A DNA stretch of 64,000 nt from Candidatus Pacebacteria bacterium CG_4_9_14_0_2_um_filter_40_15. Its GTDB lineage: Bacteria; Patescibacteriota; Microgenomatia; UBA1400; PJMF01. The stretch covers positions 199,767 to 263,766 of the forward strand of contig PFRS01000005.1 in NCBI GenBank assembly GCA_002788675.1. Reading direction: 5' to 3'. Shown here in pieces: positions 6,621-32,521 of the stretch (its first letter is position 1; every line of letters begins with the position of its first letter). Position numbers and translations under genes: made by a program. Below the pieces are notes generated by a model. It worked only from the letters and a program-made list of their open reading frames with translations. It was not told the origin of the DNA and made no database searches.

Positions 6621-6694
6621 TCGGGTTGACTGGACTCGAACCAGCGACCTCACGCACCCCATGCGCGCACTCTAGCCATCTGAGCTACAACCCG
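6621..6694 (-). tRNA. tRNA-Pro (anticodon GGG)
   Basis: The reverse complement folds as a cloverleaf. Acceptor CGGGUUG/CAACCCG with C1:G72 and discriminator A, which are proline identity elements. D arm GCUC/GAGU. Anticodon stem CGCGC/GCGUG with loop AUGGGGU (U33, G37). T arm GCUGG-UUCGAGU-CCAGU. No encoded CCA. Confidence 0.85.
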
Positions 6695-26971: not shown

Positions 26972-27059
26972 CTACTTGATCAATTCAACTCCCGATTCCC
27001 CATTGATATCTTTATATTTTTTACTATCTTCACTCAGAAATAGTGCAATCCTATAACTA

Positions 27060-27088
27060 TTGACAAAGCGACTTAGTGGTGATATAGT
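27060..27088 (+). promoter_or_regulatory. Sigma70 promoter TTGACA-17-TATAGT preceded by conserved AATCCTATAAC element
   Basis: Hexamers plus an upstream element shared with three other promoters in this region. Confidence 0.5.
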
Positions 27089-27169: not shown

Positions 27170-27505
27170 ATGAAAGCATTAAAACTCACCTTAGCTGGTG
27201 TTCTTGCTACAGCAACAATGCTCAGCTTCTCAACTGTGGTTTCTGCAGATACAGCTGAACAGTCACAATCTGCTGACCAAAAAGTAACAGTTAAATGTAC
27301 AACTGGTTCTTATGGACAAGACTCAACTTGTGAAGCTTCTGGAGAGCAATCTCTCGAGCAATCACAAAAGATTGTCTATACCAACGTTCTTGGTAAAACC
27401 CATGAGCCTGTTGATACAGCTCTCGACTTTGGTACTGCATCTGCAGCTGCCATGAGTTTAGTAACTGGTGCTGGTGCACTCGTACTTAAACGTAAGATTG
27501 CTTAA
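27170..27505 (+). CDS. Small secreted protein with C-terminal hydrophobic segment + KRK (sorting-signal-like)
   Basis: Signal peptide MKALKLTLAGVLATATMLSFSTVVSA. C-terminus ...GTASAAAMSLVTGAGALVLKRKIA. The start is set at the second Met; the ORF track starts at 27119. Confidence 0.55.
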   Translation: MKALKLTLAGVLATATMLSFSTVVSADTAEQSQSADQKVTVKCTTGSYGQDSTCEASGEQSLEQSQKIVYTNVLGKTHEPVDTALDFGTASAAAMSLVTGAGALVLKRKIA

Positions 27506-27529
27506 TTTCAACATTTGAAGCTAATTAGA

Positions 27530-27555
27530 AAGACCCCTTAACAGGGGTCTTTTTA
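27530..27555 (+). terminator. Rho-independent terminator (AGACCCC-ttaaca-GGGGTCT + T5)
   Basis: 7-bp GC-rich stem with a U-run. Confidence 0.75.
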
Positions 27556-27601
27556 GTTGTAGATGCTATGAGCAGTTTACTCAAGAATTAGTCCCATAGT
27601 A

Positions 27602-27630
27602 TTGACATATGTTAATGATCGTGTTATAAT
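27602..27630 (+). promoter_or_regulatory. Consensus sigma70 promoter TTGACA-17-TATAAT (with upstream CCCATAGTA element)
   Basis: Both hexamers are perfect and the spacing is 17. Confidence 0.6.
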
Positions 27631-27636
27631 ACTCTT

Positions 27637-27991
27637 ATTAGTGATGCACAAGCGTCACTCGCATACAACCAACATTAAACATTTCACTCTTGGTTGTAGA
27701 ACCGCTCATACATAAAATAGACACCTGTTGACAGCTGTCAGGCATTTACGAATGCTCTTCACCTGTCAACATACCGCATCTTGGCATTAGTGCCAAATCC
27801 TGCGGGCGAGACAGAAGCTGTTTTCAGATTTATCTGGAAACTGCACCTTAACAGGTATACAGAAAAAAGAAATTTCATTTCCTCTTGTAATTGGGAAAGA
27901 CAGAATTTGGTCGTTGTGCAACCCACAATGGGCGCGTTTATTGGTTGTAGCGTGCTCATTGTGGGTTGCAGACCCAGATTTTTGTTTTTTT
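27637..27991 (+). ncRNA. Candidate ~350-nt structured non-coding RNA or regulatory 5' leader of the 28072 gene
   Basis: It is bounded by a consensus promoter and a 14-bp hairpin plus U-run. It contains multiple internal inverted repeats: CAACCAA/TTGGTTG, TGTTGACAG/CTGTCAACA, TTGGCA/TGCCAA. The only ORFs are two short overlapping ones on opposite strands with no SD. Confidence 0.3.
27917..27991 (+). terminator. Long hairpin (TGCAACCCACAATG...CATTGTGGGTTGCA, 14 bp) + U-rich tract
   Basis: Perfect 14-bp inverted repeat with a 26-nt loop, followed by GACCCAGATTTTTGTTTTTTT. Confidence 0.55.
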
Positions 27992-28071
27992 AAATTTAAG
28001 GCGGGGTCTTCCCGCCGACCTGGATCTGCATCCCGCGGACCAGGAAATATACCCTATTTACGGAGGCTCAA

Positions 28072-29223
28072 ATGAAGAAAGTACTATCTTTCATGTTCTT
28101 AGCAGTTTTATTGTCCGCGTGCCGGATCCCCGGCACTGATTTCGTTATTTTCGAAAGCATTGCTGAAGAAAGTAGCGTAATTGTAGTTGTCGAACCCACC
28201 CCAACCCCTAGCCCAACTCCTGTTGTGGCTATTGAAGACGCTGCTTTTCAATGGGTTCCCGGCGTAGATGCTCGTATTGACAATCTGTTCACTGATCCCA
28301 ACCATGCTTATGGTACCGATACCAATGTTGCATGTGGGACCCCCAACAATGCTGATGGGGTTATTATTCCAGGAGATGCTGTGTATTCAGCCGAAGATCT
28401 CCGCTACATGGAAGAAGGTGATCATGATTATCCCAATGATATCTATGTCGATTGCAAAAATTTTATCGGATGGCAACTACGCATTCTTGATCCCGAAATG
28501 CCCAAAAGCGAAACTGCCGAAGCAACTGCAACCCCGGCCGCTGAAGTTGAAAACACCGATCCAATTGGTGAAGAAGTTTTAACCGCTGATGGTACCTGGC
28601 GCGTCAAGCTGTGGCAAGATTTGTCATATGGCCCTGAACTGGGTCACAGCCGTCCTGGCTTCGGAACTTCAATTAATGAGATTGGCATCGCCGTTGGCGT
28701 TGACCTGTCCGTTATCATTGATGGTAAAGAAGTAATGCTCGGTGGTGGATGTAACCAAATCGCCGTTATGCCAGAAAGTTACGCCCGCGACGCGGGTGGG
28801 AACGACTGGGGCTACCGCTCATACCAGTTCAATCCTGAGGTCACGCAGGCCTTGGATGAACTCGTGGTGCTGAACCACGAATGGGCACGTGCGCAGATTA
28901 ACGACGAAGATTGTCCCGAACTGTCCGACGAAGAACTGCTGATTCACACCTTTGTGTTTTGGCAAGATTCTGAAGGCGTAGATCACCTCCAACCATGGCA
29001 AGAGTTCCGTCGGGCAACCGGCGAGGACAATGTCATCATGGTTCACCCGTCTGACGGGGCCATGATCGGTTGGCATTGTGGCGAAGGCGACAGCCAAGAC
29101 AACCTGGCCGACAACGGCCAGTGTTTTGTCGAGGATGTTAACTTCTGGGGTTACCTTGGTGGTGGCGTTGTCCACCCCTGGGAAGGTGAAGTCCCGGCTA
29201 ATACCGTAGACGTCACCAAATAA
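28072..29223 (+). CDS. Lipoprotein of unknown function, markedly GC-rich (putative horizontally acquired)
   Basis: Lipobox LLSAC and SD GGAGG. Codon usage is rich in GCC/GGC/CCC, with local GC visibly ~50-55% against ~38% around it. It has a Pro/Thr linker and an acidic domain. Confidence 0.65.
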   Translation: MKKVLSFMFLAVLLSACRIPGTDFVIFESIAEESSVIVVVEPTPTPSPTPVVAIEDAAFQWVPGVDARIDNLFTDPNHAYGTDTNVACGTPNNADGVIIPGDAVYSAEDLRYMEEGDHDYPNDIYVDCKNFIGWQLRILDPEMPKSETAEATATPAAEVENTDPIGEEVLTADGTWRVKLWQDLSYGPELGHSRPGFGTSINEIGIAVGVDLSVIIDGKEVMLGGGCNQIAVMPESYARDAGGNDWGYRSYQFNPEVTQALDELVVLNHEWARAQINDEDCPELSDEELLIHTFVFWQDSEGVDHLQPWQEFRRATGEDNVIMVHPSDGAMIGWHCGEGDSQDNLADNGQCFVEDVNFWGYLGGGVVHPWEGEVPANTVDVTK

Positions 29224-31530: not shown

Positions 31531-31588
31531 ATATCTATAATAGCAGTTTTTAGCCAAGTTGTCTCATATTTAATATAATCCTATAATA

Positions 31589-31617
31589 TTGACGTATTAC
31601 TGTTTCCGTGTTATAAT
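31589..31617 (+). promoter_or_regulatory. Sigma70 promoter TTGACG-17-TATAAT preceded by ATAATCCTATAATA element
   Basis: The 19-nt block ATAATCCTATAATATTGAC is identical to the one at 32468-32487. Confidence 0.55.
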
Positions 31618-31722
31618 TACCTCAAGTTAAGTAATTTTGCTTGACTGTATATCCTGAAATACTAGCGCATGCAGACGCTGCGTAATGTATTTTAGGACTG
31701 CACATTCACATAGGAGAAAAAA

Positions 31723-32412
31723 GTGAAAAGAATCTTATTGATCCTAGGGACATTCGTTCCTACAATTCTTATTCTGTTCGTCTCATCTGTGGTTTTTGCT
31801 AAACCAGCAGATCTGACAGCCACTGTGTTTGGTAGCGGTGAAACCTTTACCATTACGGTAGAAGGCGGCACAGGCCTCGAGCAAATCGAAGCCTATACAC
31901 CAAACCAATTGGTCTTTACACCGGAATGGACTTTGATCACCACTAATACATACCAGGCCGTGATCACAAGCACTACTGGCTGGGACAGCTTCACGCTGTT
32001 CTGGAAAGACCAAACCTGGGTAGATCAACATGACACCTGGGAAAATAACGGTGACGGTTTTATGGTCCGCGCTCAAACACCGCCGGCACCACAACCAAAT
32101 CCAATTACTGCAACCGTTACTGGTCAAGGTGAAAGCTTTACCATAACGGTAGAAGGCGGGACAGGAACCGAGCAATTAGAAGTGTACCGACCTGATCAGT
32201 ATGTCTTTACGCCGGATTGGACGCTAGTTACAACTGGCACCTATCAGGCGATCATAACAGACACAACGGGTTGGGACAGCTTCACGCTGTTCTGGTTAGA
32301 TCAAACCTGGGTTGATCAACATTCTACCTGGGAAGATAACGGTGACGGCTTTATGATTCGTTCACCTAAACAGGTATTTTGGTCCTTCCTTCCGTTCATT
32401 CGGAAGGACTAG
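31723..32412 (+). CDS. Secreted protein built from two tandem ~84-aa repeat domains; GC-elevated
   Basis: GTG start with SD AGGAG and a signal peptide. Repeat units share TITVEGGTG.EQ.E.Y.P.Q.VFTP.WTL.TT.TYQA.IT.TTGWDSFTLFW.DQTWVDQH.TWE.NGDGFM.R. Confidence 0.7.
   Translation: MKRILLILGTFVPTILILFVSSVVFAKPADLTATVFGSGETFTITVEGGTGLEQIEAYTPNQLVFTPEWTLITTNTYQAVITSTTGWDSFTLFWKDQTWVDQHDTWENNGDGFMVRAQTPPAPQPNPITATVTGQGESFTITVEGGTGTEQLEVYRPDQYVFTPDWTLVTTGTYQAIITDTTGWDSFTLFWLDQTWVDQHSTWEDNGDGFMIRSPKQVFWSFLPFIRKD
31819..32361 (+). repeat. Tandem direct coding repeat, 2 x ~252 nt (~80% nt identity) separated by a 39-nt Pro-rich linker
   Basis: Repeats 31819-32070 and 32110-32361 share an identical 25-mer CTGGGACAGCTTCACGCTGTTCTGG. 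Confidence 0.8.
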
Positions 32413-32426
32413 TTCTCCTCTGTGTT

Positions 32427-32468
32427 AGCCCCCGGCCTCTGAAAAGAGATCCCGGGGGCTTTCTATTT
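32427..32468 (+). terminator. Rho-independent terminator (AGCCCCCGG...CCGGGGGCT + TTTCTATTT)
   Basis: 9-bp GC-rich stem. Confidence 0.65.
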
Positions 32469-32482
32469 ATAATCCTATAATA

Positions 32483-32511
32483 TTGACAAATCACCATTTA
32501 AATGCTATACT
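32483..32511 (+). promoter_or_regulatory. Sigma70 promoter TTGACA-17-TATACT preceded by ATAATCCTATAATA element; near-leaderless transcript for GT2 gene
   Basis: The -10 ends 10 nt before ATG 32522. The track ORF start at 32483 is the TTG of the -35 itself. Confidence 0.55.
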
Positions 32512-32521
32512 TGTATCTAGT

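What the first reader, a model, noticed from the sequence alone, without database searches (positions are those of the whole stretch)
27602..28071. Promoter-to-terminator 350-nt structured non-coding region (novel sRNA or riboswitch-like leader) upstream of a GC-rich lipoprotein gene
A perfect TTGACA-17-TATAAT promoter fires into ~350 nt that contain no credible ORF. The region has many stable inverted repeats (CAACCAA/TTGGTTG; TGTTGACAG/CTGTCAACA with a nested GCATT/AATGC; TTGGCA/TGCCAA). It ends in a 14-bp perfect hairpin plus U7 (27917-27991). The downstream gene (28072, SD GGAGG) has no promoter of its own in the 80 nt after the hairpin. So either this is an independent sRNA, or it is a long cis-regulatory leader whose terminator hairpin is conditionally bypassed (attenuation or riboswitch architecture). 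I could not recognise RNase P (no GGAAAGUCCGG), tmRNA, SRP or common riboswitch cores (TPP, FMN, SAM, cobalamin, fluoride), so it may be an undescribed RNA family.
Basis: seen in the sequence. Interest (0 to 1): 0.7.

Follow-up and report, generated by a model that had tools for sequence, protein, structure and literature searches.

The report
Conserved structured leader RNA of lipoprotein gene
A strong promoter in this tiny-celled groundwater bacterium drives a roughly 340-base, hairpin-rich RNA that is conserved with compensatory base changes in about ten related species, always ahead of a fast-evolving surface lipoprotein gene; it matches no catalogued RNA family and most likely acts as that gene's regulatory leader rather than as a free small RNA.

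Summary
A 12/12 TTGACA-17-TATAAT promoter with an extended TG (27602-27630) fires into a chain of stable hairpins with no conserved ORF (z = -7.6 to -9.8).

Homologues occur in 8 further distinct sequences from related Patescibacteria (Pacebacteria-like) species. Each has the same promoter and lies directly upstream of a GC-rich lipoprotein gene. Covariation is strong:
- H3-H6: 94.8% of cells paired, 20 of 41 pairs with compensatory changes.
- H7: 99.3% paired, 7 of 20 compensatory.

Rfam 15 has no match, and neither do the phage, plasmid or viral collections.

The "terminator" is not conserved. A U-tract follows the small hairpin T, which overlaps the 3' arm of H7, only in the window and weakly in two relatives. 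Elsewhere the conserved structure continues to the Shine-Dalgarno sequence with no second promoter. When the upstream genes change, the RNA stays with the lipoprotein gene.

Best reading: a new, lineage-restricted structured 5' leader acting in cis on mRNA stability, attenuation or translation. H7 and T are mutually exclusive helices. A free sRNA remains possible, because in one distant relative the RNA is separated from the gene. No ligand or protein partner can be named. Interest is moderate.

The parts
27590..27630 (+). Promoter: lineage-typical upstream motif AGTCCCATAGTA, then -35 TTGACA (27602-27607), 17-nt spacer with TG, then -10 TATAAT (27625-27630). Predicted transcript start is about 27637.
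   Evidence: 12/12, TG. The same extended motif sits at other promoters in the window (family D3; 27046-27088). It precedes the RNA in all relatives. The start site is inferred, not measured.
27640..27659 (+). H1: 8-bp hairpin with an ACAA loop, beginning about 4 nt from the predicted 5' end.
   Evidence: It is kept in all 9 sequences, with G-C/G-U/A-U exchanges and 2 pairs with compensatory changes.
27664..27698 (+). H2: UACAACCAA (27664-27672) paired with UUGGUUGUA (27690-27698).
   Evidence: The sequence is nearly invariant, so there is no covariation. The 5' strand is also complementary to the H7 loop.
27726..27771 (+). H3: long hairpin with three stem segments and a UACG loop. The basal stem TGTTGAYAG/CTGTCAACA is almost invariant.
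   Evidence: helices 1-2: 100% and 87.5% of cells paired; 7 pairs with compensatory changes.
27774..27805 (+). H4: two-segment hairpin.
   Evidence: helices 3-4: 7 of 11 pairs with compensatory changes.
27810..27817 (+). Conserved unpaired motif GACAGAAG.
   Evidence: The first seven bases, GACAGAA, are invariant in all 8 rows of A4; the eighth is G in 7 of 8. It is unpaired in every fold.
27820..27841 (+). H5: 9-bp hairpin capped by a tetraloop (UUUA here; GCAA, GUAA or CUUG in relatives).
   Evidence: helix 5: 5 of 9 pairs with compensatory changes.
27845..27865 (+). H6 mini-hairpin ACCU-UAAC-AGGU followed by unpaired AUACAGAAA. This is the most widely conserved element.
   Evidence: The motif CUUUAACA(A)GGCAUACAGG is the only clearly recognisable sequence shared with the distant relatives L018, L053 and L055; L016 has a weaker version.
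27866..27916 (+). Variable, weakly structured linker with a pyrimidine tract (UUUCCUCUU).
   Evidence: Length is 48-93 nt across species. Complementarity to the SD is not above chance.
27917..27970 (+). H7: 20-bp hairpin (about -39 kcal/mol) with a 14-nt loop carrying UUGGUUGUA (27941-27949), which is complementary to 27664-27672.
   Evidence: (99.3% paired, 7 of 20 compensatory). Invariant G-U pairs fix the + strand as the functional one.
27962..27991 (+). T: small hairpin UGGGU-UGCAG-ACCCA (27962-27976) that re-uses the 3' arm of H7, then a U-rich tail (27979-27991). Terminator-like in this species.
   Evidence: The T pairing is kept in all 9 sequences (UGGGC/GCCCA, GGGCUGU/ACAGCCC, GUGGGUU/GGCCUAC). 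A U-rich tail occurs only in the window, L051 and L048.
28000..28016 (+). Hairpin GGCGGG-GUCUU-CCCGCC, specific to this species.
   Evidence: It is absent in L051. Relatives carry a pseudoknot module at this position.
28019..28044 (+). Conserved distal leader hairpin CCUGG-AU-CUGC-AUCCC-GCGG-A-CCAGG.
   Evidence: It is alignable in the window, L051, L011, L042, L044 and L046.
28062..28074 (+). Shine-Dalgarno GGAGG (28062-28066) and start codon ATG (28072-28074).
28072..29223 (+). Gene for a 383-aa acidic lipoprotein (lipobox LLSAC), GC 0.50. This is the gene served by the leader.
   Evidence: (no Pfam match).

Best explanation
The region is the 5' leader, about 435 nt long, of the lipoprotein mRNA. 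Its first 340 nt or so form a conserved structured RNA domain that represents a new, lineage-restricted RNA family in a Pacebacteria-like clade of Patescibacteria.

Shown:
- One consensus promoter.
- Hairpins H1 and H3-H7 kept by compensatory substitutions. H2 is conserved in sequence but has no covariation.
- Invariant unpaired motifs (GACAGAA, UAAC loop, AUACAG).
- No conserved ORF.
- No second promoter and, in most species, no terminator before the SD.
- Linkage to the lipoprotein gene even when the upstream neighbours change.

Inferred mechanism: the RNA acts in cis.
1. The 5'-proximal hairpin H1 and the chain of very stable hairpins protect the mRNA of what is probably an abundant surface protein.
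2. The very stable H7 and the small hairpin T share a strand and exclude each other. In this species T plus its U-tract is a weak intrinsic terminator, which H7 pre-empts by folding first. The default is therefore read-through.
3. A trans factor could shift the balance toward premature termination. It might bind the conserved single-stranded ACAGAA/UAAC motifs, or alter the competition in which UACAACCAA pairs with either the H2 arm or the H7 loop. In relatives the shift would instead change the downstream leader fold near the SD.

The factor is unknown. A protein or an RNA seems more likely than a small molecule.
For: Promoter and anatomy.

Homologues: nhmmer E-values from 1e-19 to 1e-77 in L011, L012, L042, L044/L045, L046, L048 and L051; CM scores of 116-159 bits.

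Covariation:
- H3-H6: 94.8% of cells paired against 33-47% for slid controls, 20 of 41 pairs compensatory, 0/500 shuffles as high.
- H7: 99.3% paired, 7 of 20 compensatory.
- H1.
- Downstream leader modules in relatives also covary, including both stems of an H-type pseudoknot.

Leader rather than sRNA:
- The scans of six relatives (L011, L012, L044, L046, L048, L051) found a single 11-12/12 promoter and no second + strand promoter before the gene; L042 and L045 show the same promoter by sequence.
- There is no U-tract after the core in L012, L042, L044 and L046, although neighbouring genes in these genomes end in canonical hairpin-U terminators.
- The distal hairpin 28019-28044 is conserved beyond the supposed terminator.
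- In L053 the upstream context is different (a TraG-like gene), yet a promoter plus a 349-nt structured leader (z = -10.3) still precedes the lipoprotein homologue. L016 is similar.

Other points:
- G-U pairs and the z-scores favour the + strand.
- No conserved ORF.
- Other promoters of the same type in the window have leaders of about 100 nt or less.
Against: - There is no expression data. The start site, read-through and termination are all inferred.
- In the distant relative L055, an RNA of about 300 nt carrying the conserved motif ends in a hairpin plus U6. Two convergent small membrane-protein genes then separate it from the lipoprotein gene. The 5' domain can therefore exist without being a simple leader.
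- The strong sequence conservation of loops and unpaired motifs exceeds what a mere stabiliser needs.
- The alternative pairings (H7 versus T; UACAACCAA with the H2 arm or the H7 loop; the long-range helix in relatives) have little or no covariation, because the sequences are invariant.
- Complementarity of the leader to the SD is not above chance.
- Only about 9 close and 4 distant sequences are known, and they are phylogenetically related.
Confidence: 0.55

Rival explanations
1. An independent small RNA of about 350 nt, running from the promoter at 27602 to the U-tract at 27991. It would act in trans, on other RNAs or by binding a protein. The lipoprotein gene would be only a neighbour, or be expressed by occasional read-through.
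For: - A strong promoter plus a terminator-like hairpin with U5GU7 in the window.
- Weaker versions of that tail in L051 and L048.
- In L055 the RNA is followed by a hairpin plus U6 and by convergent genes, so there it must be a separate unit.
- Repeated unpaired CAGAA motifs and conserved loops resemble protein- or RNA-binding sites.
- The core is conserved about as well as the neighbouring M23 peptidase gene, while the downstream protein is barely alignable.
Against: - No U-tract follows the core in L012, L042, L044 and L046, although canonical terminators are the rule in these genomes.
- No promoter for the lipoprotein gene lies downstream of the core in any species.
- Conserved structure continues to the SD.
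- The terminator-like stem T is only 5 bp, and a -39 kcal/mol hairpin that forms first pre-empts it.
- The RNA follows the lipoprotein gene when the upstream context changes.
Confidence: 0.2
2. A true riboswitch. The H3-H6 core (or H3-H7) would be an aptamer for a small molecule, and the H7/T choice (terminator here, leader refolding elsewhere) would be the expression platform.
For: - Covarying helices flank invariant unpaired nucleotides.
- The mutually exclusive H7/T pairing is kept in all 9 sequences, with a U-C/A-G exchange.
- UACAACCAA has two alternative partners.
- The arrangement is in cis, upstream of one gene family by position.
Against: - The predicted fold is a string of hairpins. 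No multi-helix junction or pseudoknot has been shown in the core.
- The expression platform is not conserved: a U-tract occurs in 3 of 9 sequences.
- The controlled proteins are mosaic and of unknown function, with no Pfam match, so nothing suggests a ligand.
- The taxonomic range is very narrow.
- No Rfam riboswitch model scores.
Confidence: 0.15
3. The conservation is at the DNA level. The promoter and leader would form the fixed 5' flank of a hot spot where divergent lipoprotein genes are exchanged by recombination, as at an expression site for variable surface lipoproteins. The RNA structure would be incidental.
For: - Lipoproteins behind the same leader are mosaic. One C-terminal domain family occurs in the window, L051 and L053; another in L012, L044 and L046. 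L042 and L046 share an N-terminal part.
- All of these genes are compositionally atypical, with GC3 0.48-0.62.
- Both flanks (leader; 75-aa gene and PMT gene) are conserved.
Against: - Compensatory double substitutions and strand-specific G-U pairs show selection on RNA pairing, not merely on DNA sequence.
- No silent cassettes or extra copies of the leader occur in the 64-kb window.
- This idea could coexist with a leader function but cannot replace it.
Confidence: 0.05
4. The region encodes a small protein, for example the 70-aa or 53-aa ORFs at 27781-27993 and 27914-28075, or a leader peptide.
For: A reading frame across H7 is open in several species.
Against: - No SD is present.
- Starts and stops differ between species.
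- A 2-nt indel in L011 shifts the frame inside H7.
- The substitutions are pairwise compensatory, not biased to third codon positions.
Confidence: 0.02

Closest known systems
Long structured 5' UTRs that stabilise mRNAs of abundant envelope proteins (E. coli ompA leader; S-layer gene leaders such as Lactobacillus slpA). Comparison from general knowledge.
   Same: A strong promoter, a hairpin very close to the 5' end, a long untranslated leader, and a downstream exported surface protein.
   Different: This leader is three to four times longer. It has invariant loops and unpaired motifs and a conserved alternative pairing, which is more than a stabiliser needs. No half-life data exist.
Transcription-attenuating riboswitches and leaders (terminator/antiterminator designs, e.g. 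T-box, purine or lysine leaders). General knowledge; the models are in Rfam.
   Same: Position in cis, covarying helices, and a strand shared between a large helix (H7) and a small hairpin followed by Us (T) in the window.
   Different: No Rfam model matches. The U-tract is not conserved. No junction-type aptamer and no ligand clue are present. By folding order, the default state is read-through.
Large, hairpin-rich bacterial non-coding RNAs of unknown or recently assigned function (OLE, ROOL, GOLLD, raiA). All are Rfam families.
   Same: Size class (over 300 nt), extensive covariation-supported structure, and often co-transcription with neighbouring genes.
   Different: No sequence or structure match. 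The distribution is far narrower, roughly one family-level clade. The predicted architecture is simpler (serial hairpins). The linkage to one gene is strict.
Expression sites for variable surface lipoproteins (Borrelia vmp/vlsE, Mycoplasma vlp/vsp). General knowledge.
   Same: A conserved promoter, 5' UTR and signal peptide in front of highly divergent, mosaic lipoprotein coding sequences.
   Different: The variation here is between species. It is not known within a genome, and no silent cassettes were seen in the window. The RNA structure itself is under selection.

Membership tests
Any Rfam 15 family (including RNase P, tmRNA, SRP, 6S, T-box, known riboswitches, OLE/ROOL/GOLLD/raiA) | Score at or above the family's gathering threshold with its covariance model | tested here: not met
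   (window; only tRNA-Pro at 6621-6694). (E-value mode over 27450-28150; only sub-threshold chance hits to miRNA, Phe-leader and Listeria sRNA models). (six relatives; none). ARAGORN finds no tmRNA.
Riboswitch (generic) | Conserved aptamer: covarying helices around conserved unpaired nucleotides, organised by a junction or pseudoknot | tested here: inconclusive
   Helices covary and unpaired motifs are invariant. The predicted folds are serial hairpins, and the only candidate long-range contact (27664-27672 with 27941-27949) shows no covariation.
Riboswitch (generic) | Conserved expression platform (terminator/antiterminator or SD sequestration) | tested here: inconclusive
   The H7/T exclusivity is conserved. 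A U-tract occurs in only 3 of 9 sequences. SD complementarity is not above chance.
Riboswitch (generic) | Specific binding of a small-molecule ligand | not testable with these tools
   This needs in-line probing, ITC or a similar assay. The downstream protein gives no clue: no Pfam match and a poor AF2 model.
Independent sRNA gene | Own promoter | tested here: met
   A 12/12 promoter with TG, conserved in all relatives.
Independent sRNA gene | Own conserved terminator, and a separate promoter for the downstream gene | tested here: not met
   The terminator-like site occurs only in the window, L051 (weaker) and L048 (weak). No downstream promoter was found in any species. The exception is the distant L055.
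mRNA-stabilising 5' UTR (ompA/slpA type) | Stable hairpin within a few nucleotides of the 5' end of a long leader | tested here: inconclusive
   H1 begins about 4 nt after the predicted start and is conserved. The start site is predicted from the -10 box only.
mRNA-stabilising 5' UTR (ompA/slpA type) | The leader prolongs mRNA half-life | not testable with these tools
   This needs decay measurements with and without the leader.

The most novel reading that the evidence does not exclude
The roughly 340-nt core is a new class of large sensor RNA in Patescibacteria. A chain of mutually exclusive helices would relay binding of a so far unknown ligand or protein, possibly a host-derived signal, to termination or translation of a rapidly diversifying host-interaction lipoprotein. 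The chain runs from UACAACCAA with the H2 arm or the H7 loop, through H7 versus T, to the downstream leader fold.
Probability: 0.25. Interest if true: 0.7.

Novelty: new member of a known kind. Interest (0 to 1): 0.45.

Why it matters
Patescibacteria are uncultivated or barely tractable, and almost nothing is known about how they regulate genes. The full-text searches run here found no description of native regulatory RNAs in the group.

This element is a covariation-supported RNA domain of more than 300 nt. It is tied to a strongly transcribed, compositionally odd surface lipoprotein with shuffled domains, which is a plausible host-contact protein. That makes it a concrete and testable entry point into post-transcriptional control in these epibionts, and a candidate for Rfam.

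Its narrow distribution, the serial-hairpin architecture and the missing functional clue keep the interest moderate.

Tried and rejected
- **Known RNA families.** Rfam at gathering and E-value thresholds on the window and six relatives gave nothing. ARAGORN found no tmRNA.
- **DGR or repeat-template idea.** No copy of the region or of the lipoprotein gene occurs elsewhere in the 64-kb window.
- **Phage or plasmid origin.** blastn found no match. Two motif scans of viral contigs found no match.
- **Metagenome pattern scan.** It returned only a contig identical to L011.
- **More distant loci around the M23 peptidase gene (62% identity or less).** nhmmer found no homologue. The CM gave only weak hits in L016 and L018. 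L013 is rearranged by an IS30 insertion.
- **Coding potential.** No conserved ORF.
- **Anti-SD hypothesis.** The pyrimidine tract at 27873-27896 is the best partner of the SD region in 4-5 of 10 leaders, but the energies are not better than for shuffled leaders.
- **Variable linker 27866-27916.** It has no conserved stable hairpin.
- **Function of the lipoprotein.**
  - No Pfam match.
  - Only 4 other clusters among 5.8 billion proteins, and 46 remote relatives among 1.84 billion representatives.
  - The AlphaFold model is too poor for a fold search (pLDDT 51).
- **Pairwise identity table.** Its gap penalties were too permissive to be discriminating, so it is used only qualitatively.
- **Literature.** The full-text searches found no description of such an RNA in Patescibacteria.

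Full report
**Source and context**

The window comes from a Patescibacteria MAG. One source names it Candidatus Pacebacteria bacterium CG_4_9_14_3_um_filter, and the assembly is GCA_009995335.1. The same strain occurs on at least 23 contigs, and the region is 99.8-100% identical in all ten that were fetched.

The local gene order is:
1. ftsE-like ABC ATPase
2. ftsX
3. M23 peptidase
4. a 111-aa secreted protein
5. the region under study
6. a 383-aa lipoprotein
7. a 75-aa protein
8. a PMT-type glycosyltransferase on the other strand

**Checking the observation**

- The promoter is a perfect TTGACA-17-TATAAT with TG before the -10 box (27602-27630).
- It carries the same upstream extension (AATCCYATAGTA) as three other promoters in the window (family D3; 27046). 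It is therefore a bona fide promoter type for this organism.
- Those other promoters have leaders of about 100 nt or less. This one is followed by about 435 nt before the SD GGAGG and the ATG at 28072.
- Folding energy is far beyond shuffled controls: z = -7.6 for 27637-27992, -9.8 for the whole leader and -4.8 for the opposite strand.
- One correction is needed. The U-run (27979-27991) does not follow the 20-bp hairpin H7 (27917-27970). It follows a 5-bp hairpin T (27962-27976) that re-uses the 3' arm of H7.

**Homologues**

- nhmmer found the RNA in two of 30 loci fetched around M23-peptidase homologues (L011 and L012).
- A protein search followed by context look-ups gave L042, L044/L045, L046 and L048.
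- L051 came in through the closest lipoprotein homologue.
- All of these belong to the clade whose M23 peptidase is at least 73% identical to the window's.
- Every copy has an 11-12/12 promoter with the same upstream motif, the structured core, and then a lipoprotein gene on the same strand.
- A covariance model of H3-H6 scores these copies at 116-159 bits. It gives weak hits in more distant genomes: L018 at 26.8 bits, L016 at 17.4 and L053 at 16.3.
- The distant leaders (L053, 349 nt, z = -10.3; L016, 398 nt, z = -7.75) are again hairpin-rich. They share with the close clade mainly a hairpin followed by CUCUUUAACA(A)GGCAUACAGG.
- Nothing similar exists in Rfam 15, in the phage, plasmid or viral collections, or in the papers searched.

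**Structure and covariation**

- On an 8-sequence alignment of H3-H6, 94.8% of cells form standard pairs and 20 of 41 pairs show compensatory double changes. No shuffle out of 500 reaches these values, and versions with the partner slid by 1-3 columns pair at only 33-47%.
- H7 is 99.3% paired, with 7 of 20 pairs compensatory.
- H1 is kept, with exchanges.
- H2 is conserved in sequence, so nothing can be said from covariation.
- Invariant G-U pairs in H7 and the z-scores identify the + strand as the functional one.
- Several hairpins end in stable tetraloops (UACG, GCAA, GUAA, CUUG).
- The unpaired GACAGAA, the UAAC loop of H6 and AUACAG are invariant or nearly so.
- No ORF is conserved. Starts, stops and frames differ between species, and L011 has a 2-nt indel inside the H7 loop.

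**Leader or free sRNA?**

For the leader:
- No + strand promoter lies between the core and the gene in any scanned species.
- A U-rich tail after T exists only in the window, in a weaker form in L051 (GUUUACUGUUGUUUUGUUUU) and weakly in L048. L012, L042, L044 and L046 have none. Yet the neighbouring 111-aa gene ends in a canonical hairpin-U terminator in these genomes.
- Conserved structure continues beyond T. The hairpin 28019-28044 is alignable in six species.
- L011, L042, L044 and L046 also carry an H-type pseudoknot and a further hairpin whose stems covary: 7 of 25 pairs are compensatory and 96.7% of cells are paired.
- In L053 the upstream neighbour is a TraG-like gene instead of the M23 and 111-aa genes. 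The promoter plus long structured leader still precedes the lipoprotein homologue. The RNA therefore travels with the lipoprotein gene.

For an independent unit:
- In the distant relative L055, the RNA of about 300 nt ends in a hairpin plus U6. Two convergent small membrane-protein genes separate it from the lipoprotein gene.
- The window itself has the best terminator-like site of all copies.

**Possible switch elements**

- The 3' arm of H7 can pair with the 5' arm (20 bp, -34 to -41 kcal/mol) or with the downstream GGCCC(A)/ACCCA to form T.
- This alternative is present in all nine sequences, with a U-A/C-G exchange and with different extensions in L012 and L048.
- UACAACCAA (27664-27672) is complementary to both the 3' arm of H2 and the H7 loop UUGGUUGUA (27941-27949).
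- L048 has lost the 5' motif, H2 and the loop motif together.
- In four relatives, RNAalifold adds a 9-bp long-range helix between the T region and the distal hairpin. It is invariant and therefore unproven.
- SD complementarity to the core is not above chance.
- These features are compatible with a relay of mutually exclusive helices, but none of them is demonstrated.

**The downstream gene**

- All eight lipoprotein genes are GC-richer than their neighbours: GC3 is 0.48-0.62 against 0.2-0.45, with two neighbouring genes (an M50-like gene and one M23 gene) reaching 0.52-0.54.
- The proteins are acidic (12-19% Asp plus Glu) and mosaic.
  - One C-terminal domain family occurs in the window, L051 and L053, and by sequence inspection in L055.
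  - A second occurs in L012, L044 and L046.
  - L042 and L046 share an N-terminal part.
  - Window against L011 or L012 is unalignable beyond the signal peptide.
- The family is tiny: 5 clusters in 5.8 billion proteins and 46 remote hits in 1.84 billion representatives.
- It has no Pfam match, and the AlphaFold model was too poor to use.

**Verdict**

This is a real, previously uncatalogued, lineage-restricted structured RNA. The best-supported reading (confidence about 0.55) is that it is the cis-acting 5' leader of a strongly transcribed, fast-evolving surface lipoprotein gene. In this species an H7/T choice can act as a weak attenuator.

A free sRNA (0.2) and a genuine ligand-sensing riboswitch (0.15) remain open. 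It is a new member of a known kind, the structured regulatory leaders and orphan RNA motifs. Interest is moderate.

Noticed in passing
window 27046-27088, 27587-27640, 31574-31627, 32468-32521: Strong promoters in this genome share a conserved extension, AATCCYATA(R)YATTGACA, directly upstream of and including the -35 box, followed by a TG-extended -10 box. The same motif precedes the RNA in all relatives. It looks like a lineage-specific promoter architecture (a UP-like or factor-binding element).
   Followed up: partly
window 31816-32069 and 32107-32360: Two 254-nt direct repeats, 76% identical, in a GC-rich stretch (about 0.49) inside the gene for a 229-aa protein of unknown function. That gene sits behind one of the promoters listed above.
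   Followed up: no
window 28072-29223; L011 9313-10434; L012 9200-10027; L042 4518-5855; L044 10434-11687; L046 3618-4901: The lipoproteins behind the leader are mosaic. C-terminal and N-terminal domains are shared in different combinations between species, and all the genes have elevated GC3. This suggests domain shuffling or gene replacement at a fixed expression locus.
   Followed up: partly
L011 9163-9190; L044 10299-10328; L046 3471-3500; L042 4372-4400: The relatives' leaders contain a compact H-type pseudoknot (for example GCGG-AA-GGCCAU-CCGU-CAA-AUGGUC) in which both stems covary. The window lacks it and has the hairpin 28000-28016 at that position.
   Followed up: partly
L055 408-745 (minus strand): Two overlapping small genes for membrane proteins (73 aa and 39 aa, with an ATGA overlap) lie convergently between the conserved RNA and the lipoprotein gene in a distant relative.
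   Followed up: partly
L013 7817-8806: An IS30-type transposase is inserted at the 3' end of the M23 peptidase gene. It truncates the gene and breaks synteny, which explains why no RNA was found in that locus.
   Followed up: no
window 27170-27505: A conserved 111-aa secreted protein with the motif VTVKCTTGSYGQ and a C-terminal hydrophobic segment plus KRKIA tail (sorting-signal-like). It has no Pfam match and is found next to the M23 peptidase gene in relatives.
   Followed up: no
window 27535-27547 and 27846-27855: The loop region of the terminator of the 111-aa gene (CCCTTAACAGGGG) contains the same CCTTAACAGG string as the conserved H6 element of the RNA. This is possibly a coincidence.
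   Followed up: no
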